Shown one piece after another: positions 3,202 to 12,226 of a DNA stretch of 42,501 nucleotides. The notes beneath the pieces were generated by a model. It was given only the letters and a program-made list of their open reading frames with translations, was not told the DNA's origin and did no database searches. This DNA is from Candidatus Woesearchaeota archaeon (GTDB taxonomy: Archaea > Nanobdellota > Nanobdellia > SCGC-AAA011-G17 > GW2011-AR18): positions 1-42,501 of the forward strand of contig JAGVZG010000008.1 in assembly GCA_018302765.1 (NCBI GenBank), in the 5' to 3' direction. Position numbers and translations under genes: made by a program. Positions within the stretch are counted from its first letter, which is position 1; every line of letters begins with the position of its first letter.

Positions 3202-5403
3202 ATGGAAGAAACATTAAGAGAAAGATGTTATTATGTATTAAAAGGATTATTTAGAGAACTTTTTGAAAAAGATACTCTACCGCAAAATGAACCACAATAC
3301 AAAGATGTTATAAGATTAATAATTGATTTATTAGACAGTAGAGAATTAGATCCAGAAAATGATAAAATTCTTATATTAAAAATAAGATCTTTATTAATGT
3401 ATGGTGATAATTGGGAACAAGTTTATCGTAAAATAATCGATAGATCAAATAAATATGAAAATTTATTAAATGAAATAATTAGATTATTGGAATTATTAGA
3501 AGATAAGAATTTAGATATAAATTACTTCTCATTAGATATTAAACTTGAGGAAGATTTAGAATTTTTTAAAGTTTTAATTCCAGGTTTTCAAAATGGGGTA
3601 GATGAAAAATTAAAGGAAATTAGAATAACTAAATTTGAAAAAGTTCCAAAACTTAACAAATTAAGATCAGGTGATCCACGCGTTTATTTACATAATCCAC
3701 TAAGGGAAGAAGTGGTGTTTGTTAAAAAACGTCTTCTGAAAGAAAGATTTCCAAATTATATAATGCCTTTCATGAAGAAATACAAGATTAAATTTTATTT
3801 ATGTTCTATAGAAAAAATGATATCTTATATTCTAAATAAATATAACAGTTCAGGATCACTAAACTTAATTGCAGTTTCTAAAACAGCATATATAAAAACA
3901 CTAGACGATAGAACTATGTTTATAGTACTAAAAAAAATATCAGGCAGATACATTCCTTTAGAAATAGCATATGGTGGAATAGATTCAAAAATTTCTCTTG
4001 TATTTATGCAGACATTTGCCTTCACTGCAGGTATAACACCTGACGAAATACAAGTTCTGGATTTTGGCGAAGCAAAAATAGCTACAGAATCATTAGTATA
4101 CAAAGCTCTTGATCCAAATGCGATAGCTCTTATTGGCTGGTGGGATGATTTATTTAAAAAAGTCATAGAATTATATTTTGAACAAAACTTTAGAATTGTT
4201 ATAAAAGATTTTATATTTTATGCTGTTGATTTTATGATGAAGAAAAAATTAAGAACACTAAACGATAGAATAACATTACTTGGGATAAAAACAAATATGG
4301 GTGGAAAATCAGATATAATAAAAGATGCATCTAAACTCGGACTTTCAATTGAAAATTTAGAAACTGAAGGTAATTTTGATATATCTTTCAGAACAAGATT
4401 TTACGATTTCCTTCAAAATTCTTTTAGTGAAGGATACGTAGAATATTCGCCTAAAGAAATAATATCTGAATTATTCAAAATTCTGGAGTTTACAGTGTTT
4501 TATGAAGACAATGAAAAAAATAGGAAAATGAAAGAAGAAGAAATAGGTGATTTATTTTTAAAAATTCATTTAAGCAAAATAGAGAAGGACATATTTTTAA
4601 GGCAAATAATTGATTCTAATAGACCTCCTCTTTTTAATTTAGATGAATACAGGGGAATAAAAAAATATTTATTAAATATAGAAGCAATATTAGGTAAAAA
4701 TAAGCAACTGATTAAATCAATTTTAAGTCATAATTTTAAAGTGCCATTGATGATAACTATAGGAAAACTTAGAATGCAATTATTTCCACATATAATAGGA
4801 AGAATTGAAGATCAAACTAAAGACCTAATAAATCAAGGAATTAAAACATTTTTATATTATGGCACAACAGGTGGTGTAAAAAACATTCCAGTGGAGTCTT
4901 TAGTCATACCTGAAGTAATTTATGTATATCCAAGAGATTATGTAAGAATAGATCCATCAATGTATTTGCCAATAGCAATAGAAAACATATTATTAGACAA
5001 GTCAAATAGCAGTTATTTTAATACAGATAATTTCTATAAAACGCATCATGTTTTTATGGCAGCTACATACCAAGAGCATGCTGGTTTCTTTCGTAAACTA
5101 CAATCATTGTTTTCTAATCCCAATGTAACAGTTTCTATTGATATGGATCTAGCACCAATAGCAGAACTTTGTCTACAAAAAGATATTAAATTAGGTTCTA
5201 TTCTTTACACTACAGATGTTCTTGCTGGAGAAGAACAAAGATCAGAGAGAAAAGGTTTCTATGCAAGACAAATTATACTTAGTTTATTTCGCGCTTGGGA
5301 AGGTAAAAAATTACTAATAAACAATCAAGATGTTGAAGTGCTGTTTAATATAGAATTTAGAAAAATAATGAACCAAGTAATAAAAGGGCTACTAAGTCAA
5401 TAA
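3202..5403 (+). CDS. Large protein with C-terminal nucleoside phosphorylase (PNP/UDP)-like domain; N-terminal ~500 aa unassigned
   Basis: LINQGIKTFLYYGTTGGV...LVIP and SIDMDLAPIAELCLQKDIKLGSILYTTDVL match the GTAGG and (V/I)(E/D)ME...SD motifs of the PNP_UDP_1 fold. Confidence 0.55.
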   Translation: MEETLRERCYYVLKGLFRELFEKDTLPQNEPQYKDVIRLIIDLLDSRELDPENDKILILKIRSLLMYGDNWEQVYRKIIDRSNKYENLLNEIIRLLELLEDKNLDINYFSLDIKLEEDLEFFKVLIPGFQNGVDEKLKEIRITKFEKVPKLNKLRSGDPRVYLHNPLREEVVFVKKRLLKERFPNYIMPFMKKYKIKFYLCSIEKMISYILNKYNSSGSLNLIAVSKTAYIKTLDDRTMFIVLKKISGRYIPLEIAYGGIDSKISLVFMQTFAFTAGITPDEIQVLDFGEAKIATESLVYKALDPNAIALIGWWDDLFKKVIELYFEQNFRIVIKDFIFYAVDFMMKKKLRTLNDRITLLGIKTNMGGKSDIIKDASKLGLSIENLETEGNFDISFRTRFYDFLQNSFSEGYVEYSPKEIISELFKILEFTVFYEDNEKNRKMKEEEIGDLFLKIHLSKIEKDIFLRQIIDSNRPPLFNLDEYRGIKKYLLNIEAILGKNKQLIKSILSHNFKVPLMITIGKLRMQLFPHIIGRIEDQTKDLINQGIKTFLYYGTTGGVKNIPVESLVIPEVIYVYPRDYVRIDPSMYLPIAIENILLDKSNSSYFNTDNFYKTHHVFMAATYQEHAGFFRKLQSLFSNPNVTVSIDMDLAPIAELCLQKDIKLGSILYTTDVLAGEEQRSERKGFYARQIILSLFRAWEGKKLLINNQDVEVLFNIEFRKIMNQVIKGLLSQ

Positions 5404-5405
5404 AA

Positions 5406-6866
5406 TTAATATGACATCAATTGTGAAATTCTTCTTTTAAATTCTGTATAGTTTCCTTCTGGACTTGCTAACTGTGCAGAATTATCTGCTTCCATTAATT
5501 TAAATAATCTCTCCAATATCATGCCATTTTTCCTTACAAATCGTGTAACTGCTTTATCAGACCAACCTGCTGTATAATTAACAACATGTTTTTCTATTAA
5601 AATACATACTGAGGTCTTTTCTTCTTCAGAAAATCCTAAACGAGTCAATACGTCATAAGACATCCTAGCGCTGCACTTTGCATGATTATAATAAGTTGTA
5701 TTATTATTTCTTTTACCACGGACGAAAGGCTTTGAAATATCATGCAACAAGCCGGCTAGTCTAAGAATATAATCATCTTTTGGCAATGATTCTACTGTTC
5801 TTAATGTATGTTCCAATAAAGTATAGTTATGTCTTGGTTGATTAGAATTATAACCTCTTTGTAAACATAATTCTGGAATAATATCAAATAATTGAGAATT
5901 TTTTTTAACATCAAATATATTATTATCACATACCAATGATTTAAGAGTTGCTTTACAATCAATACCGCTCGTTGGTTCAATGGTTAAATCAGTTTTATTC
6001 ACATATTCATCTATTTTACCAACATCAAATTTTTGTTCTACAACATCAATTAATTCTCTAGGCAGATTTTCATATCCCACACCAGCACCTATAAGAGCAC
6101 CAGTACAAAAGAATAAAGTGTCATAATCAGCACTATCGAACTGGGAAAATGTGTAGTTCAGCATCTTAATAAAATTCATTTCAGATGCGATATAAAGTGC
6201 CAATGCGCTTGGTAATATATTTCTTGCAGAGCCATCTATTATATTTATTGCTTCTATATTTCCAGATAAAGCAATGCGCAGGTTATCGTCATAAACAATA
6301 TCTTCTAATGTAGGTTCACATATAGACCAAATTAAAGGTTTATTTCTGAGAATACAATGCAATGCAGAAAAATAACGAAAAGCCCAAACTTTATCAGCAG
6401 ACCTATGTGTCTTATCCATCAAAACATACAGCTCTCTTTCTAAATCCTCTTCAAATTCAAATTTCTGGACTAATGGAAGAGCAAGAGGTACAAATCCACT
6501 GCCACTATTATTTGTGTAAGGATTTGGTTCTTCAGGATTATTTTTATAATAAAATAATAGATTTCTCATCTTTGCAGAAAAACCTTGCCTTCTTAAATTT
6601 TCTAATCTTTTTTCAGCTATTTTTCCTAAATGTTCTTCATATTTTCCAGTTGGTTCATAGAAATAATCAATACTATGAAATAGAAGAGAAGTTTCATCGC
6701 TGATTGTAACATCACGTGCAGATCTAAATTGTTTTAAATATATTTCAGTATTGGGAAATTTTTTTCTTATCTGTGATCTAGACATAAATTCAATGCGTCT
6801 GCCTAAAGCGTCACCCAATATAGCCCCAATATACATTCCTTTTATTTTATCTTGTAAGGAGCTCAT
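5406..6866 (-). CDS. ADP-ribosylglycohydrolase (DraG/ARH-like) fused to HD domain
   Basis: GAILGDALG, SDET, THRS and DYDTLFFCTGALIGA (ARH motifs); HNYTLLEHTLRT...LAGLLHDISKP...HAKCSA...H...AD (HD domain resembling the tail of CCA-adding enzymes). Confidence 0.8.
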   Translation of the reverse strand: MSSLQDKIKGMYIGAILGDALGRRIEFMSRSQIRKKFPNTEIYLKQFRSARDVTISDETSLLFHSIDYFYEPTGKYEEHLGKIAEKRLENLRRQGFSAKMRNLLFYYKNNPEEPNPYTNNSGSGFVPLALPLVQKFEFEEDLERELYVLMDKTHRSADKVWAFRYFSALHCILRNKPLIWSICEPTLEDIVYDDNLRIALSGNIEAINIIDGSARNILPSALALYIASEMNFIKMLNYTFSQFDSADYDTLFFCTGALIGAGVGYENLPRELIDVVEQKFDVGKIDEYVNKTDLTIEPTSGIDCKATLKSLVCDNNIFDVKKNSQLFDIIPELCLQRGYNSNQPRHNYTLLEHTLRTVESLPKDDYILRLAGLLHDISKPFVRGKRNNNTTYYNHAKCSARMSYDVLTRLGFSEEEKTSVCILIEKHVVNYTAGWSDKAVTRFVRKNGMILERLFKLMEADNSAQLASPEGNYTEFKRRISQLMSY

Positions 6867-6921
6867 GCAAATTTAAATTCTTATGTTTATATAAATTTTA
6901 CTATTGATAAGAAGTGACATT

Positions 6922-7983
6922 TTAAATAACAACATATGGAAATGGGTCAACTATTCTGCCAGCAACAATAACTTGAATATGGACATGAGGATTGTCTTTA
7001 GATGCATTACCAGTAATGCCAACCTTGCCCAAAAAGGCATTTAATTCTATTGCTTGCCCAGATTTAATTTTTTTATTAACCCAAGATAAATGAATGTATT
7101 TTACTAATATTCCAGAATTAGTTCTATATTCTGCAACTATGCCATTTCTCCAAAGTTTTCTGTTTCTTTCTTTTCCTAAATAAAGCAATGTCCCGCTTTC
7201 TACAGGATATAAAGGAGTTCCTATTGAAGCTACTAGATCAAGACCTTTATGTTTTGTAACACTATAACGCCCCCTGCCTGATGATCTTATTCTTCTGGCT
7301 CCAAACTTGTCTCTTGGTCTTATATTTTCTAAAACATCCTGCCTTGAAGATCTAAATGGATTTTGCCTTGTCTTTGATGTGGGAGTTGTTACTTGAATTG
7401 GTGCTTTAATTCCCTTTGGACTTTTTGGTTCTTCTTCAATTAAATCCTTTTCAACTAAAGAAGCTGGTACTAATATTTTTTGTTCATCATAAACAATTCC
7501 TTTTATTGGATTAATGTCTTGGTTTATAGTCAAGATTATTGCTCTTTTTTCATAAAAATTATAAGGTTTGTCAGCCATAAATTCTTTTATTAGTTCCCAT
7601 AAATTATTTATTCCAGGTTCACCTTGTGATGAAATTTCATAAATCACAAATTTATTTTCATCTAAAACTCTTCTTATAGAATTTCTTACAAGGCCTGTCG
7701 GAATATACAAATAGTCATCAGGCTTCAATCTTCTTCTATCGTTAAATCTTATTAAATTATCAGTATTTCTTTCACTTCCAGTATAAAGGTCTGCTATAGA
7801 ACTATAGTTCTCGCCTGTTTTTACTTTAATCTTTAAACATAATTGTTTTTTGTAAACAACATATAAAGCCTTTAATGCTTTCTTTGCAAAAGCCTCTAAT
7901 GGAGATAGAGCAGACAATCCTAATAAACCAAAAAAACCACCAAGTAAATCTCTTCTTTTAATGCCTTGGCCCTCTTCTTCCAT
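6922..7983 (-). CDS. Exported LysM-domain M23 family metallo-endopeptidase
   Basis: KRRDLLGG twin-arginine-like leader ending AFA; LysM VKTGENYSSIADLY...LIRFN...LKPDDYLYIP plus a degenerate second LysM; M23 motifs HKGLD, YIHL and HVH. Confidence 0.88.
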   Translation of the reverse strand: MEEEGQGIKRRDLLGGFFGLLGLSALSPLEAFAKKALKALYVVYKKQLCLKIKVKTGENYSSIADLYTGSERNTDNLIRFNDRRRLKPDDYLYIPTGLVRNSIRRVLDENKFVIYEISSQGEPGINNLWELIKEFMADKPYNFYEKRAIILTINQDINPIKGIVYDEQKILVPASLVEKDLIEEEPKSPKGIKAPIQVTTPTSKTRQNPFRSSRQDVLENIRPRDKFGARRIRSSGRGRYSVTKHKGLDLVASIGTPLYPVESGTLLYLGKERNRKLWRNGIVAEYRTNSGILVKYIHLSWVNKKIKSGQAIELNAFLGKVGITGNASKDNPHVHIQVIVAGRIVDPFPYVVI

Positions 7984-8024
7984 AAAATTACAGTTATAAT
8001 TCTAATTATAAAACTTTCTCATGA

Positions 8025-9026
8025 TTAATTATAAATTTTATAAGGTGGATTGCCGCCAGTAGATTTAGCAAGATCTTCTAAAATTGATTCATCTCTGCTT
8101 GTGCCTATTTGAATTATATTGATTTTTACATTATTTTTTAAAGCAGCACTTTTTGCTTTATAAAAATCTCCCTGACAAGTATCTTCTCCGTCGGTTAATA
8201 CTGTCAGAGTTTCTCCTTTTTTCATATCAGAAACTGTTTCATAAATGGAACTCAAAAGTGAGGTAAATCCTACAGGGCGATATATTGCCAATTCTTTCTT
8301 CGTTAATTTTTTTGGAGAAATATCACAATCACTAAAAACCCAAATTTCAGCACTACCAGGATAATTATAATTTTTTACAATATCCCACTTGCTTTTACTA
8401 CCATAAGTGCCAAGAGAATCTGTCATCGAAGATGAAGCATCAAGCAAATATTTATCTGCAGGAAGTAAATCAAGTGCTCTTTCTATCGGATCTCTTTTTA
8501 GTAAGACTGTAACTCTTCTGTCTTGGGGAAATCGTCCTCTTTCATTGTTAGACTTAGACTCACCATAAGCAGTTATATTAATAGTTCCTTGAGCATTTGG
8601 AAACTCAGTTTTAACAAAATTACCAACATTGCTTGCCCTAACGTAAGATAAAGCCTCATTGTAATGATCATTGCCTCTTCTATCTGCAAATCCTTCAAGG
8701 GTTATTGTCAAAATATCGTTTTTAACATTTCCAACTGCAGCTCTTAAAGTCTTTTTATCTAAGTCATCAAGAACGCAGCCCCTAGTAGGAAAGTAAACCA
8801 CAGCGCTGTCACTGCTTGCAGCACTTGTAGCTTGATCTCCCAATTCTTTATAATTAATACATATTTTTGTCATACTAGGATATTTGTCTTCTATTTTTAC
8901 ATCGCCTAATCTAAAAGTCTGGGATGTAGGAGCAGTACTATTACTTGTTTTATCACTGCAGCTACCTAAACCAAGCAATCCAAGTAGTCCAATACCGGCC
9001 CATCTTAAAATACTACTCAATGTCAT
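8025..9026 (-). CDS. Lipoprotein with OmpA-like (peptidoglycan-binding) domain and vWA domain
   Basis: Lipobox-like LLGLGSC; LEGFADRRGNDHYNEALSYVRASNV...AYGES...DRRV (OmpA C-like); LLDASSSM MIDAS, VLTDGEDTC and LAKSTGG (vWA). Confidence 0.85.
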   Translation of the reverse strand: MTLSSILRWAGIGLLGLLGLGSCSDKTSNSTAPTSQTFRLGDVKIEDKYPSMTKICINYKELGDQATSAASSDSAVVYFPTRGCVLDDLDKKTLRAAVGNVKNDILTITLEGFADRRGNDHYNEALSYVRASNVGNFVKTEFPNAQGTINITAYGESKSNNERGRFPQDRRVTVLLKRDPIERALDLLPADKYLLDASSSMTDSLGTYGSKSKWDIVKNYNYPGSAEIWVFSDCDISPKKLTKKELAIYRPVGFTSLLSSIYETVSDMKKGETLTVLTDGEDTCQGDFYKAKSAALKNNVKINIIQIGTSRDESILEDLAKSTGGNPPYKIYN

Positions 9027-9123
9027 AAATTTAATTTGCTCAAATATTATTTAAATCTTACTATTTTTACTACTATTAAGATATAACAATAAACTTTATA
9101 TTAATAATAAATTAAAAACTTTA

Positions 9124-9816
9124 ATGGAAAATTATGATCATAACAAAGTAAATTTTAGGGAATTTATTCTTGGCGGTCAGGATGGTTTGGTAAATGTTCT
9201 TGGATTAGTTCTTGGAGTAGCAAGCGCAACATCTAGCACAAATATTGTAATTATTTCAGGAATTGTAGCTACTGTTGCAGAGAGTGTAAGTATGGCTGCT
9301 GTAGCTTATACTTCTTCTAAAGCTGCAAAAGATTATTATTATAGTATAATTAAAGAAGAGCAAACTCATGTCAGTTACAAACCAAAATTAGAAGAAAATG
9401 AAATAAAACAAATTTACTATAAAAAAGGTTTTAGAAGTAAAGAATTAAATAATATTGTTAAACATATAACATCAAATAAGAAGCTTTGGGTGGAAACTTT
9501 ATTACTAGAAAAACATAAAATATCTAAAGTCGAATTTGAAAATCCATTAAAGAGCGGGTGGATAGTTGGAATTTCTACAATAATAGGCAGTTTAATTCCT
9601 TTAACACCATTCTTCTTCTTAAATGTAAAAACAGGAATCATTACTTCTATTGTTTTTTCAGCTGCAGCATTATTTATTGTTGGAGCTATAAAAGCAAAAT
9701 TAAGCATTGGAAATTGGAAAAAAAGTGGCATGGAAATTATGACCATAGGAATAATTGCAGCCTTGCTTGGTTATGGTGTTGGATTACTATTGAAAGGTTA
9801 TGGTGTTCTTGTTTAA
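9124..9816 (+). CDS. VIT1/CCC1 family transporter
   Basis: REFILGGQDGLVNVLGLVLGV, AESVSMAA, P..S...G...IIGSLIPLTPF and a five-TM layout. Confidence 0.92.
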   Translation: MENYDHNKVNFREFILGGQDGLVNVLGLVLGVASATSSTNIVIISGIVATVAESVSMAAVAYTSSKAAKDYYYSIIKEEQTHVSYKPKLEENEIKQIYYKKGFRSKELNNIVKHITSNKKLWVETLLLEKHKISKVEFENPLKSGWIVGISTIIGSLIPLTPFFFLNVKTGIITSIVFSAAALFIVGAIKAKLSIGNWKKSGMEIMTIGIIAALLGYGVGLLLKGYGVLV

Positions 9817-9859
9817 ATTTATAGTATGCTTTTTAATATTTTCTATTATTTTCAATTTA

Positions 9860-10432
9860 ATGGTTAAAACTACTAGAGACAGAGTTGAAGATTTTCTACT
9901 TTGTTTAGGTGCTGAAATTATGCATGGCGATAAGATGCAAAGAATAGCAGGTATGTTGTTTTTTGGTAGTTATACTTATTCTGAACAATTTGCAGATATA
10001 GATATTGTTGCAGTTTTAAGTGGAGAGTTTAGAGATTTAGGAGAATTAAAAGAGAGATCCAAATATGACAGAAGGTGGCTTAAATATTTTTTAGAGGAAG
10101 CATCTAGTGGATGGAAAATTCCATATTTCCAAAATCAAGGTTATTTTGGAATATTTGAAACAAGGCCTAGAAGAATTGAAGAGGAATTAAGGCAGCTTGA
10201 AAGACAAATAAGAGTAGTTTATAAAAACTTTGCAGATGTTAACAGTATTACAATTTCTGCTAGGGAAGAAATTGGATTATTTAAGCCGCCAAGAGATTTT
10301 AGGTTTTCTTCAGAGAAACTTTTTTGGAGAGATGAATATTTAAAAAAAGAAGTAAGTGGAATGCTATTTAGAATAAATTTAGATTATGAAGAAGTAATAA
10401 GAAGTTACAATAGAGCCACAGTTATATTATAA
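9860..10432 (+). CDS. Pol-beta superfamily (MNT-like) nucleotidyltransferase domain protein
   Basis: LFFGSYTYSEQFADIDIVAV gives the GS...DxD motif; ATG at 9860 preferred to the ORF-track start at 9800, which overlaps the upstream gene. Confidence 0.65.
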   Translation: MVKTTRDRVEDFLLCLGAEIMHGDKMQRIAGMLFFGSYTYSEQFADIDIVAVLSGEFRDLGELKERSKYDRRWLKYFLEEASSGWKIPYFQNQGYFGIFETRPRRIEEELRQLERQIRVVYKNFADVNSITISAREEIGLFKPPRDFRFSSEKLFWRDEYLKKEVSGMLFRINLDYEEVIRSYNRATVIL

Positions 10433-12226
10433 ATCCAGTCCTTTTATTATTTCATCTTTATTAAATTCTTTAAGATCGCTTTCTGATTGCCCCACACCTA
10501 AAAACAATATTGGCTTGTGAGTCACAAAAGATGTAGAGATCATTGCCCCACCTTTTTCATCAACATCTGCCTTAGCTAGAATAATAGCATCAATATTTAT
10601 AGCATTATTAAATTCTTTGGCTTGCTCAACACAATCATTTCCAGTTATTGCTTCGCCCACAAATATTTTTAAGTTAGGCTTAGCTACACGTATAATTTTT
10701 TGCATTTCTCTAACAAGGTCAATATTTGAATGAAGTCTTCCTGCAGTATCAATAAGAACAACATCCATTCCATGCGCTTCAGCATATTTTATTGAGTCAA
10801 AAGCAACAGCTGCAGGATCACTACCGTAGTCATGAGCTATAACTTTAACACTTAATTTATTTCCCCATTCTTTTAATTGTTGTATTGCAGCAGCTCTGAA
10901 AGTGTCAGCAGCAGCTAATACTACTGATTTTTTATTCTTCTGCAATAAATAAGCTACTTTGGCTATTGATGTTGTTTTGCCGCTGCCATTGACTCCAACA
11001 AAACAAATAACAAAAGGTTTTTTCTCTTTGATTCTTTCTAGTAAATCAATTTTCTCAACATTAAACAAATCTTCAATGCTTTCTTTCAAGGAATTTTTTA
11101 TTTCATCTTCAACTTTGCCTCTTTTAATTGACTTTTCAACTATGGTTTTTTTCATGTCTTCTTTTATTTTTTCTACAACTTCAAAAGCAACATTGTTCTC
11201 CAGCATTGCTAATTCTAAATCATAAAATAACTCTTCAAATTTCTCTTCAGAAATTTTTGTAGTTGTTATTTTTTCTTTAATAATTCCAAAAAATCCTTTC
11301 TTCTCTTCTTTAATTTCAGGTTTTTCTTCAATAGTTTCTGTTTTTTCTTCTATTGGCTTAATCTCTTCTTCTTTTCTTGCAAATTTTTCTTTTAGTTTAG
11401 AAAAAAATCCTTTCTTCTCTTCTTTAATTTCTAAATTATTTGATATTTTATAATTCCAACCAGGTTGCCAGATTTTTTTATGTCTCCAATCTTCCTTAAT
11501 TGCCTGCTCCCAAGTTTTATTATTCAATAATACTTCAATAGCAAGTTGAGTATATTTATGGGCAACAATTGCAATATGTTTACCATAATATTTTTTATAA
11601 ATATCATTAATAAAATCTTTAATTCTTAATTCTAAATCTTTCAGAGATTCGCCATTTGGTAATGTCTTATGTATCCCATTATCATTAATAAAATCTTCAA
11701 TAATATTTTCTGGTTTGTTTGTAAAGTCTCCAACATCTAATTCACGTAGCCTTTTATCCTCTATTATTTCTTTATCTGGCCAGGTTAATTTAGCACTTTC
11801 AATAGCTCTAGGTAAGTCTGAAGTAAATATAACATCAAAACAAACATTAATTTTATTTGTAAGATCTTTTGATTGTTGTTTTCCCAATTTTGAAAGACTG
11901 ATTTTACTTTGCCCAGAAAAAATACCTTTTTCATTATCAGGTGTTGTTCCATGAGCAAAATAAATAATTTTTACACCAACTATCTTTTCAGGCTCTTTAG
12001 CAATTTCTTCTTCAGGAGTAAGATCTTCAGGTTTGTGCTTATGTTCTTCTTCAATAAATTCAAATTTCTTTTTACTCTTTACTTTTTCAGATTTTTTCTT
12101 ATATTTTGGCTTTTCTTCTTTAACTTTAGTTTCTACTTCTATTTCTTCTTTAGGCGCCTCTTCCTCTACTTTCCTTGAAATCTTGGAGATTGCACTTTTT
12201 AGTTTTTCTTTTAAAAATCCAAACAT
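10427..12226 (-). CDS. ftsY: SRP receptor FtsY with inserted histidine phosphatase domain
   Basis: MFGFLKEKLK start, GVNGSGKTTSIAK, DTFRAAA, DTAGR, KADVDEKGG; residues ~85-265 carry YFAHGTT...TSDLPRAIESA...LRELDVG...PNGES...IVAH. Confidence 0.95.
   Translation of the reverse strand: MFGFLKEKLKSAISKISRKVEEEAPKEEIEVETKVKEEKPKYKKKSEKVKSKKKFEFIEEEHKHKPEDLTPEEEIAKEPEKIVGVKIIYFAHGTTPDNEKGIFSGQSKISLSKLGKQQSKDLTNKINVCFDVIFTSDLPRAIESAKLTWPDKEIIEDKRLRELDVGDFTNKPENIIEDFINDNGIHKTLPNGESLKDLELRIKDFINDIYKKYYGKHIAIVAHKYTQLAIEVLLNNKTWEQAIKEDWRHKKIWQPGWNYKISNNLEIKEEKKGFFSKLKEKFARKEEEIKPIEEKTETIEEKPEIKEEKKGFFGIIKEKITTTKISEEKFEELFYDLELAMLENNVAFEVVEKIKEDMKKTIVEKSIKRGKVEDEIKNSLKESIEDLFNVEKIDLLERIKEKKPFVICFVGVNGSGKTTSIAKVAYLLQKNKKSVVLAAADTFRAAAIQQLKEWGNKLSVKVIAHDYGSDPAAVAFDSIKYAEAHGMDVVLIDTAGRLHSNIDLVREMQKIIRVAKPNLKIFVGEAITGNDCVEQAKEFNNAINIDAIILAKADVDEKGGAMISTSFVTHKPILFLGVGQSESDLKEFNKDEIIKGLDL
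11288..11431. repeat. Perfect 30-bp direct repeat within ftsY (11288-11317 and 11402-11431)
   Basis: AAAAAATCCTTTCTTCTCTTCTTTAATTTC occurs twice with a 114-nt period; both copies encode EIKEEKKGFF. Confidence 0.9.

What the first reader, a model, noticed from the sequence alone, without database searches (positions are those of the whole stretch)
6922..9026. Archaeal two-gene module aimed at bacterial peptidoglycan: LysM-M23 endopeptidase plus OmpA-like/vWA lipoprotein
Seen: two co-oriented genes 41 nt apart. One has a twin-arginine-like leader, LysM domains and intact M23 zinc ligands (HKGLD, HVH). The other has a lipobox, an OmpA C-like domain (GFAD..G....N..LS..RA...YGE...RRV) and an intact MIDAS vWA domain. 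Established: LysM and OmpA-like domains bind peptidoglycan, M23 enzymes cut its peptide cross-bridges, vWA domains mediate metal-dependent adhesion, and archaea lack peptidoglycan. The flanking core genes are clearly archaeal. Inference: an attach-and-digest kit letting a DPANN cell dock onto or lyse bacteria, which would point to a bacterial host or prey, or to wall scavenging.
Basis: partly seen in the sequence, partly recalled or inferred. Interest (0 to 1): 0.88.

Follow-up and report, generated by a model that had tools for sequence, protein, structure and literature searches.

The report
Archaeal bacterial-wall cutter plus wall anchor
A tiny Woesearchaeota (DPANN) archaeon that cannot make peptidoglycan carries an apparently active, exported peptidoglycan-cutting enzyme next to a membrane-anchored peptidoglycan-binding protein; this fits the already published idea that such archaea attack or attach to bacteria, and the anchor protein is the new part.

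Summary
Two real, co-oriented genes lie 41 nt apart in archaeal DNA. The same gene order was found in six contigs from independent assemblies, so this is not a chimera.

- **Gene 1 (6922-7983, minus strand):** a signal peptide, one LysM-fold module and an M23 endopeptidase. All five catalytic and zinc residues are invariant in 18 relatives. A second LysM is not shown.
- **Gene 2 (8025-9026, minus strand):** a lipobox leader, an OmpA/Pal-like domain that keeps the Asp/Arg pair known to bind diaminopimelate, and a vWA domain with a full MIDAS motif.

The genome is 100% complete. I found no Mur ligase, FtsW/RodA, TatA or TatC in it. It also encodes an SLT protein, a 2257-aa SLT+M23 protein and a class-A PBP.

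The M23 gene sits at a fixed VIT1-M23-SRP54 position in related Woesearchaeota. Its nearest homologues outside the family score far lower, so I see no sign of recent transfer.

Relatives of the OmpA/vWA gene neighbour a peptidoglycan-active enzyme (M23, SLT or a beta-lactamase/PBP-like protein) in 6 of 13 contexts. The pair is not obligate.

The OmpA/vWA partner and the twin-arginine-type leader in a lineage that lacks Tat are the new points. This scan had already reported the class-A PBP in this genome on other DNA.

The parts
6922..7983 (-). Gene for the exported LysM-M23 metallopeptidase (353 aa)
   Evidence: ORF. Pfam M23 above its cut-off. About 25 full-length homologues at 40-51% identity, named Woesearchaeota or Nanoarchaeia where a name is given.
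7885..7983 (-). Signal peptide, residues 1-33: twin-arginine-type n-region (KRRDLL), a Gly/Leu-rich h-region and an AFA cleavage motif
   Evidence: Read from the sequence. RRxFL is near-invariant in the family. Weak Pfam TAT_signal hits in 4 of 18 members. No TatA or TatC in the genome. Low pLDDT over residues 1-35.
7693..7845 (-). LysM-fold module, residues 47-97
   Evidence: VIA-align matches to solved LysM domains 4uz2, 4xcm, 5k2l and 2mkx (Z 4.4-5.3, rmsd 1.6-2.0). All ten structural neighbours in the ESM Atlas carry LysM. The Pfam LysM score is below its cut-off.
7459..7650 (-). Second beta-alpha-alpha-beta module, residues 112-175, ending in a GQxILVP-like motif; identity unproven
   Evidence: AF2 secondary structure. 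hhalign against module 1 aligns only 13 columns at 2.6% probability.
6925..7377 (-). M23 (LytM-type) catalytic domain, residues 203-353, with H245, D249, H298, H333 and H335
7984..8024 (.). 41-nt spacer between the two genes; it holds a TATA-like TTTTATAA at 8006-8013, about 27 nt before the M23 start codon
   Evidence: Sequence. The promoter reading is inference only, because such AT-rich words are common in this genome.
8025..9026 (-). Gene for the OmpA-like/vWA lipoprotein candidate (333 aa)
   Evidence: ORF. Pfam OmpA above its cut-off. 87 representative clusters at E <= 1e-10; those listed mostly cover both domains.
8958..9026 (-). Leader with a lipobox (LGLGSC, Cys23), followed by a Ser/Thr-rich low-confidence linker up to about residue 70
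   Evidence: Read from the sequence. About 11 of 27 relatives have a lipobox-type Cys at the matching place. pLDDT is below 50 for residues 21-49.
8496..8813 (-). OmpA/Pal-like peptidoglycan-binding domain, residues 72-177, with D115 and R130
   Evidence: The alignment to E. coli and A. baumannii Pal places D115 and R130 on the Asp/Arg pair, 15 residues apart.
8034..8474 (-). vWA domain, residues 185-331, with MIDAS residues D196-x-S198-x-S200, T255 and D279
   Evidence: Invariant columns. Fold matches to vWF A3, the integrin I domain, TFIIH p44 and BatB.
9048..9055 (-). TATA-like TTTAAATA about 26 nt upstream of the OmpA/vWA start codon
   Evidence: Sequence. Inference only.

Best explanation
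Both genes encode exported proteins that act on bacterial peptidoglycan, not on anything the archaeon makes.

The M23 protein is secreted, most likely by Sec. Its LysM-fold module would hold the glycan strand, and its intact zinc site would cut peptide cross-links. Its best named matches are DD-endopeptidases of Gram-negative bacteria (Pgp3, ShyA/ShyC, MepM).

The second protein would be tethered to the archaeal membrane through its lipobox cysteine and a flexible Ser/Thr stalk of about 45 residues. Its Pal-like domain would grip diaminopimelate-type stem peptides through D115 and R130. Its vWA/MIDAS domain would bind a protein ligand through a metal ion.

Together they would let the cell hold on to a bacterial wall and open it locally, as in episymbiosis or predation.

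Shown here: domain identity, conservation of catalytic and binding residues, no wall-synthesis genes found, long residence in the lineage, and repeated adjacency of the anchor gene to wall enzymes. Inferred: export route, lipidation, substrate type, the ligand of the vWA domain, and use on living bacteria.
For: - M23 and OmpA score above their Pfam cut-offs.
- H245, D249, H298, H333 and H335 are invariant in 18 M23 relatives.
- R130 and the MIDAS residues D196, S200, T255 and D279 are invariant, and D115 is kept in at least 90%, of 27 OmpA/vWA relatives.
- D115 and R130 align with the Asp/Arg pair of Pal.
- The folds are confirmed.
- The best NCBIfam names for the M23 domain are peptidoglycan DD-endopeptidases.
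- The own genome is 100% complete, and I found no Mur ligase and no FtsW/RodA.
- The own genome also has a 380-aa SLT protein and a 2257-aa SLT+M23 protein.
- Relatives of the OmpA/vWA gene lie beside or within three genes of M23 (window; L015; L003), SLT (L011; L034) or a Beta-lactamase2/PBP-like protein (L021). That is 6 of 13 contexts and three unrelated enzyme classes.
- All contexts of the closer relatives are archaeal.
- Published parallels: PMC8204110, PMC9723730, and PMC12352652, which shows that a haloarchaeal M23 hydrolase kills bacteria.
Against: - There is no biochemical or expression evidence.
- The pairing is facultative: G087, G109 and G143 have the M23 family without the OmpA/vWA, and G149 has the reverse.
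- LysM modules can bind chitin or other GlcNAc polymers, and M23 enzymes can cut non-wall proteins.
- The genome also has a class-A PBP, which a pure attack model does not explain.
- No bacterial partner is known.
- How a Gram-negative outer membrane would be crossed is unexplained.
- Archaeal lipoprotein maturation was not tested in this lineage.
Confidence: 0.6

Rival explanations
1. The biochemistry is the same (peptidoglycan binding and cleavage) but no attachment to living cells is involved. The enzyme would be released to degrade free wall debris for nutrients, or to kill competitors as a bacteriocin-like weapon. The OmpA/vWA protein would merely retain wall fragments at the surface.
For: - The patchy distribution resembles that of weaponised hydrolases. 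The full-length M23 family is in 5 of 151 genomes of the order, and the OmpA/vWA is in 6 of 401 genomes of the phylum.
- PMC12352652 interprets such patchiness in this way.
- The M23 protein has a cleavable signal peptide and no anchor.
Against: - No AnmK and no GH3/NagZ were found, so the classical uptake and catabolism of muropeptides is not evident.
- The M23 gene keeps a fixed VIT1-M23-SRP54 position across genera. That is less typical of mobile weapon genes.
- The partner protein is predicted to be membrane-tethered.
Confidence: 0.22
2. [quoted passage not shown] The bacterial-type domains would have been re-purposed.
For: - LysM is known to bind chitin and pseudomurein (cited in PMC12352652).
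- The LysM score is below the Pfam cut-off, so the module is divergent.
- Known DPANN hosts are archaea (established knowledge).
Against: - The Asp/Arg pair that binds diaminopimelate is conserved.
- The neighbours of OmpA/vWA relatives are SLT and PBP-like enzymes, which are specific for murein.
- I found no Mur-type ligase for pseudomurein in the genome.
Confidence: 0.1
3. The archaeon builds or maintains a murein-like layer of its own. In that case the M23 protein would be an autolysin (like MepM or NlpD), the OmpA-like lipoprotein would be a Pal-like tether, and the class-A PBP would be the synthase.
For: - A class-A PBP glycosyltransferase domain is present (earlier scan note e1-1385948).
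- Pal, M23 factors and PBP1 cooperate in bacterial division (established knowledge).
Against: - I found no Mur ligase and no FtsW/RodA in a genome scored 100% complete.
- The one MraY-family hit is of the type also found in archaea without murein.
- The M23 and OmpA/vWA genes are missing from most relatives, which would be odd for a wall system.
Confidence: 0.04
4. Assembly chimera or bacterial contamination: the two genes do not belong to the archaeal chromosome.
For: - The domains are of bacterial type.
- The leaders are Gly/Leu-rich and use RR, unlike the Lys-rich leaders typical of this genome.
Against: - The identical order FtsY-VIT1-OmpA/vWA-M23-ARH/HD-PNP-like-SRP54 is found in six contigs from independent ENA, Logan and JGI assemblies.
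- G+C is 31-34%, like the flanks.
- The same VIT1-M23-SRP54 arrangement occurs in other Woesearchaeota genomes.
Confidence: 0.01

Closest known systems
LysM+Peptidase_M23 modular peptidoglycan hydrolases catalogued in Nanoarchaeia (Woesearchaeales, Pacearchaeales), and the tested haloarchaeal M23 hydrolase Woldo (Strock et al. 2025, PMC12352652)
   Same: An archaeal, signal-peptide-bearing protein that joins a wall-binding module to an M23 catalytic domain. The proposed target is bacterial peptidoglycan.
   Different: - The LysM module here is below the Pfam cut-off, so a Pfam-based catalogue may miss it.
- The leader is twin-arginine-type in a lineage that lacks Tat. The haloarchaeal proteins are genuine Tat substrates.
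- No activity data exist for any DPANN member.
- That work did not list OmpA among its domains.
Bacterial LytM-type DD-endopeptidases with N-terminal LysM-like domains: ShyA (6ue4), NMB0315 (3slu), Csd3 (4rny), Pgp3 (6jmx), MepM
   Same: - The fold matches at Z 14-16.
- The full HxxxD, catalytic His and HxH set is present.
- There is an N-terminal accessory domain or domains.
- The best NCBIfam names come from this group.
   Different: - Identity is only 20-28%, and every NCBIfam score is far below the equivalog cut-off.
- In bacteria these enzymes remodel the cell's own wall. This organism has no wall-synthesis genes that I could find.
Pal, the OmpA C-terminal domain and YfiB: OmpA-like peptidoglycan-anchoring lipoproteins of Gram-negative bacteria (1oap, 4g4w, 3td4, 5eaz)
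   Same: An N-terminal lipobox, the OmpA-like fold, and the conserved Asp/Arg pair 15 residues apart.
   Different: - It is fused to a C-terminal vWA/MIDAS domain.
- It is encoded by an archaeon, so the membrane it sits in and the wall it binds would belong to different cells.
- I found no TolB-type partner.
[quoted passage not shown] 2021, PMC8204110; Vigneron et al. 2022, PMC9723730)
   Same: - Same lineage and same proposed purpose.
- The own genome has such a protein: 2257 aa with SLT and M23 domains. It also matches the N-terminal module of the M23 family.
   Different: The pair studied here consists of two small single-purpose proteins rather than one giant multi-domain protein. The catalytic class is a peptidase, not a glycosidase.

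Membership tests
Peptidase family M23 (LytM-type) | Profile match above the curated cut-off | tested here: met
   PF01551 scores 50.2 bits against a cut-off of 28.7. All 18 family members match.
Peptidase family M23 (LytM-type) | Zinc ligands HxxxD and HxH, plus the catalytic His | tested here: met
   H245, D249, H298, H333 and H335 are invariant.
Peptidase family M23 (LytM-type) | LytM fold | tested here: met
   Z 14-16 and rmsd 2.0-2.8 A over 117-130 residues against 2b0p, 4lxc, 7qrl and 3slu. Foldseek E is about 1e-10.
Peptidase family M23 (LytM-type) | Cleavage of peptidoglycan cross-links | not testable with these tools
   This needs zymography or muropeptide analysis.
LysM domain | Profile match above the curated cut-off | tested here: not met
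   PF01476 scores 13.6 bits against a cut-off of 20.9. Only 5 of 18 relatives give even a weak hit; the best E-value is 0.017.
LysM domain | Beta-alpha-alpha-beta fold that superposes on solved LysM domains | tested here: met
   Residues 47-97 match at Z 4.4-5.3 and rmsd 1.6-2.0 A over 44-51 residues. For the second module (112-175) the test is inconclusive.
OmpA-like (OmpA_C/Pal) peptidoglycan-binding domain | Profile match above the curated cut-off, and the fold | tested here: met
   PF00691 scores 32.7 bits against a cut-off of 27.2. Foldseek matches Pal and OmpA-C at TM 0.72-0.83 by target.
OmpA-like (OmpA_C/Pal) peptidoglycan-binding domain | Conserved Asp and Arg that bind diaminopimelate | tested here: met
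   D115 is kept in at least 90% and R130 is invariant in 27 relatives. Both align to the Pal ADERG...ERRA positions. That these positions bind DAP is from my own knowledge of the A. baumannii OmpA-DAP structure (3td4 appears).
vWA domain with MIDAS | Profile match above the curated cut-off | tested here: inconclusive
   The score is 15.3 bits against a cut-off of 23.8 in this protein. Relatives score 30.8 and 24.0 bits.
vWA domain with MIDAS | The vWA fold and the DxSxS...T...D motif | tested here: met
   Fold matches to vWF A3, the integrin I domain and TFIIH p44. D196, S200, T255 and D279 are invariant.
Tat (twin-arginine) export substrate | RR motif followed by a hydrophobic stretch | tested here: met
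   KRRDLLGGFFGLL is present, and RRxFL is near-invariant.
Tat (twin-arginine) export substrate | A TatA/TatC translocase encoded by the organism | tested here: not met
   There is no TatC or TatA in the own genome. TatC is found in 1 of 151 genomes of the order.
Lipobox lipoprotein | [LVI][ASTG][GAS]C near the end of a signal peptide | tested here: met
   L-G-S-C with Cys23. About 11 of 27 relatives have an equivalent Cys.
Lipobox lipoprotein | Lipid-modification machinery in the organism | not tested
   I did not search for archaeal lipoprotein maturation genes.
Bacterial-type self-wall remodelling set (Pal + M23 factor + class-A PBP) | The organism synthesises peptidoglycan (Mur ligases, SEDS polymerase) | tested here: not met
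   No Mur_ligase_M and no FtsW/RodA in a 100%-complete genome. A class-A PBP is present.

The most novel reading that the evidence does not exclude
The OmpA-like/vWA lipoprotein is a dedicated inter-domain junction protein. It would be anchored in the archaeal membrane and clamp the peptidoglycan of a bacterial host, while its MIDAS site recruits whichever wall enzyme is encoded beside it (M23, SLT or PBP-like). This would be a modular docking platform that defines which DPANN archaea live on bacteria rather than on archaea. A bolder extension is that the conserved twin-arginine leader, useless in a lineage that lacks Tat, is read by the bacterial host's Tat system after transfer of the protein.
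Probability: 0.2. Interest if true: 0.75.

Novelty: new variant of a known kind. Interest (0 to 1): 0.45.

Why it matters
No DPANN archaeon has yet been shown to live on a bacterium, although several papers infer it from wall-degrading genes.

This locus gives two small, soluble-domain proteins with intact active and binding sites. They are far easier to express and test than the giant SLT proteins discussed so far.

The OmpA/vWA protein travels with three different classes of wall enzyme, which makes it a candidate marker for bacteria-associated DPANN lineages. It could also serve as a probe, for example a labelled ectodomain, to find the partner cells in groundwater samples.

The twin-arginine leader in a lineage that lacks Tat is a small, separate puzzle about archaeal protein export.

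Tried and rejected
- **Complex prediction:** Complex prediction with OmpA/vWA (68-333) and M23 (40-353) scored 0.00 and gave no verdict. It says nothing either way.
- **Read mapping:** I judged contig integrity from independent assemblies instead.
- **Word-index search:** The search for homologous proteins found nothing for the OmpA/vWA protein. The exhaustive representative search did find relatives.
- **Related loci:** The search for related loci with A2 failed because the alignment has no stretch conserved enough to search with. I used the genome search and the fetch from genomes instead.
- **Cluster names:** the clusters of OmpA/vWA relatives carried no useful names.
- **Second LysM:** a profile-profile test for an internal LysM duplication was negative.
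- **Phage or plasmid origin:** phage matches to the M23 domain reach only 25-34% identity, and the OmpA/vWA protein has no plasmid match.
- **General Tat use:** only 3 ORFs in the genome have RR-type leaders, against 42 with Lys-rich leaders.
- **Self-wall model:** considered and judged unlikely.
- **Muropeptide recycling:** no AnmK or NagZ was found.
- **tRNA or Rfam elements in the window:** none.
Full report
**1. What is there**

Two ORFs lie on the minus strand: 8025-9026 (333 aa) and 6922-7983 (353 aa), separated by 41 nt. The window's G+C is about 24-41%, and the two genes (31-34%) do not stand out.

The surrounding genes are archaeal. They include SRP54, an FtsY that carries a histidine-phosphatase insert, TruD, GINS51, aIF2-alpha, PAC2 and an archaeal A24 prepilin peptidase.

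The window is contig C28 of a 1.02-Mb genome in 28 contigs, scored 100% complete with 1.15% contamination. Sources name the closest homologues Candidatus Woesearchaeota or Nanoarchaeia.

**2. The M23 protein**

- Pfam Peptidase_M23 is well above its cut-off (50.2 against 28.7 bits).
- In an alignment of 18 family members at 35-53% identity, H245 and D249 (HxxxD), H298 (the catalytic His in YxHL) and H333/H335 (HxH) are invariant.
- An AlphaFold model built on that alignment has mean pLDDT 84. Its C-terminal 150 residues superpose on LytM, lysostaphin, DipM, EnvC and NMB0315 at Z 14-16 and Foldseek E of about 1e-10.
- The best NCBIfam names are peptidoglycan DD-endopeptidases (Pgp3, ShyC, ShyA, MepM), all far under their equivalog cut-offs.
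- Residues 47-97 superpose on solved LysM domains (Z about 5, rmsd 1.6-1.7 A). All ten structural neighbours in the ESM Atlas for residues 40-182 carry LysM. The Pfam LysM score is sub-threshold (13.6 against 20.9).
- A second beta-alpha-alpha-beta unit (112-175) could not be shown to be LysM.

**3. The leader puzzle**

The N-terminus reads KRRDLLGGFFGLLGLSALSPLEAFA, and RRxFL is near-invariant across the family. This is a textbook twin-arginine pattern.

However, TatC and TatA are absent from this complete genome. TatC appears in only 1 of 151 genomes of the order, and that genome is 72% complete. In the own genome only 3 ORFs have RR-type leaders, against 42 with Lys-rich leaders.

Export is therefore probably through Sec. 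Why RR is kept is unexplained.

**4. The OmpA/vWA protein**

- Pfam OmpA passes its cut-off (32.7 against 27.2). VWA is sub-threshold here but passes in relatives.
- The exhaustive search found 251 representative clusters at E <= 0.001 and 87 at E <= 1e-10. Those listed are mostly 300-350 aa and cover both domains.
- In 27 aligned relatives E111, G118, N123 and R130 are invariant, and D115 and R117 are at least 90% conserved. The MIDAS residues D196, S200, T255 and D279 are invariant.
- The alignment to Pal puts D115 and R130 on the Asp/Arg pair, 15 residues apart. From my knowledge of the OmpA-DAP complex, that pair holds diaminopimelate.
- The model (pLDDT 82.6) matches Pal, OmpA-C, YfiB and TagL in one half. 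The other half matches vWF A3, the integrin I domain, TFIIH p44 and BatB.
- The leader ends in LGLGSC. About 11 of 27 relatives have a lipobox-type Cys, and others have RR-type leaders.

**5. Is it really archaeal, and how old is it?**

The exact gene order FtsY-(190 aa)-VIT1-OmpA/vWA-M23-ARH/HD-PNP-like-SRP54 recurs in six contigs from independent ENA, Logan and JGI assemblies. This excludes a chimera.

In other Woesearchaeota genomes the M23 gene sits in the same place, between VIT1 and SRP54 and next to TruD, FtsY and GINS (L001, L002, L006). One of them has two tandem M23 paralogues.

Outside the family the next hits drop from E 1e-21 to 1e-8 and at most 38% identity in the catalytic domain. 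Phage hits reach 25-34%. I see no recent donor.

The distribution is patchy. The full-length M23 family is in 5 of 151 genomes of the order. The OmpA/vWA is in 3 of 151 and in 6 of 401 genomes of the phylum.

**6. Are the two genes linked?**

They are adjacent in the window. In G075 they are adjacent but convergent (L015). In a 41%-identical relative they are separated by two small ORFs (L003/L004).

Other OmpA/vWA relatives lie next to other wall enzymes:
- an SLT lytic transglycosylase (L011; L034, one small gene between);
- a Beta-lactamase2/PBP-like protein (L021).

That makes 6 of 13 contexts examined, with three unrelated wall-enzyme classes. The genome has only about five such genes among roughly a thousand, so this is far more than chance, even though the M23 cases are not independent of each other. 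The remaining contexts show nothing recognisable.

The pairing is not obligate. One more distant member lies on a TGA-recoded, apparently bacterial contig beside YceG (L035), so the architecture is not exclusive to archaea.

**7. Whose wall?**

I found no Mur ligase and no FtsW/RodA in the own genome. Its only MraY-family hit is of a kind also seen in archaea without murein.

The genome does encode a 380-aa SLT protein, a 2257-aa protein with SLT and M23 domains, and a class-A PBP glycosyltransferase domain. The 2257-aa protein also carries a copy of the M23 family's N-terminal module.

No AnmK or GH3 NagZ was found, so classical muropeptide catabolism is not evident.

The simplest reading is an extracellular toolkit aimed at bacterial peptidoglycan. 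The class-A PBP remains unexplained by that reading.

**8. What is known**

- Castelle et al. 2021 (PMC8204110) and Vigneron et al. 2022 (PMC9723730) proposed that Woesearchaeota and Pacearchaeota bind and degrade bacterial walls with large SLT proteins.
- Strock et al. 2025 (PMC12352652) found peptidoglycan hydrolases in 5% of archaeal genomes, most prominently in Nanoarchaeota. They showed that a haloarchaeal M23 enzyme kills bacteria. Their S2 table lists LysM+Peptidase_M23 in Woesearchaeales and Pacearchaeales.
- No paper holding DPANN, OmpA and peptidoglycan together was about such a gene (from titles and abstracts), and OmpA is not among the domains in Strock's tables.

**9. Verdict**

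The new content is:
- the OmpA-like/vWA lipoprotein family as a recurrent neighbour of wall enzymes in DPANN;
- the fixed chromosomal seat of the M23 gene;
- a conserved twin-arginine-type leader in a lineage that lacks Tat.

I rate it a new variant of a known kind, with interest 0.45.

Noticed in passing
window 10427-12226 (-): FtsY carries a complete histidine-phosphatase (His_Phos_1) domain N-terminal of its NG domain. The same 599-aa fusion is in the Woesearchaeota genome of L001, but the L006 relative has a plain 402-aa FtsY.
   Followed up: partly
window 3202-10432: The stretch between SRP54 and FtsY is a variable accessory island. Relatives hold only VIT1-M23 there (L006), or add MazE/PIN, a second M23 and an MFS transporter (L001). 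This window adds the OmpA/vWA gene, an ADP-ribosylglycohydrolase-HD fusion and a 733-aa PNP-like protein.
   Followed up: partly
G000:C26, L017:7252-14025 (-): A 2257-aa protein has SLT (around residue 1900) and M23 (around residue 2150) domains. It also has a stretch (1057-1160) that matches the N-terminal LysM-like module of the small M23 family. This is the type of giant protein described by Castelle 2021.
   Followed up: partly
G000:C16, L018:2376-4656 (+): A VTT/DedA-domain gene, a PAP2 phosphatase gene and a 380-aa SLT gene overlap end to end like an operon. A VTT-domain gene also lies two genes downstream of the SLT gene of the OmpA/vWA-SLT cluster in L034.
   Followed up: no
G000:C27:88007-88504 (+), L019: A class-A PBP glycosyltransferase (Transgly) domain lies in an 842-aa ORF, in a genome where I found no Mur ligase or FtsW. 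It was already reported by this scan (e1-1385948). Its role beside the hydrolases is unexplained.
   Followed up: partly
G000:C27:22273 (+): A 280-aa ORF has an RRR leader and a lipobox-like LLLFPAC. It is one of only three RR-type leaders in the genome, and like the M23 leader it differs in composition from the native Lys-rich leaders.
   Followed up: no
L021:3733-4698 (G322:C50): The OmpA/vWA homologue of this genome is interrupted by one in-frame TGA. It is either a pseudogene or a sequencing or recoding issue. It lies between a TFIIB gene and a convergent 579-aa Beta-lactamase2-domain gene.
   Followed up: no
L035:4951-6051: A more distant OmpA/vWA relative translates only with TGA read as a sense codon and sits near a YceG (MltG) gene. 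This suggests a member in TGA-recoded bacteria.
   Followed up: no
L003:5032-5915: Two small ORFs (150 and 143 aa, no Pfam hit) lie between the OmpA/vWA and M23 genes in a groundwater relative. They may be further parts of the set.
   Followed up: no
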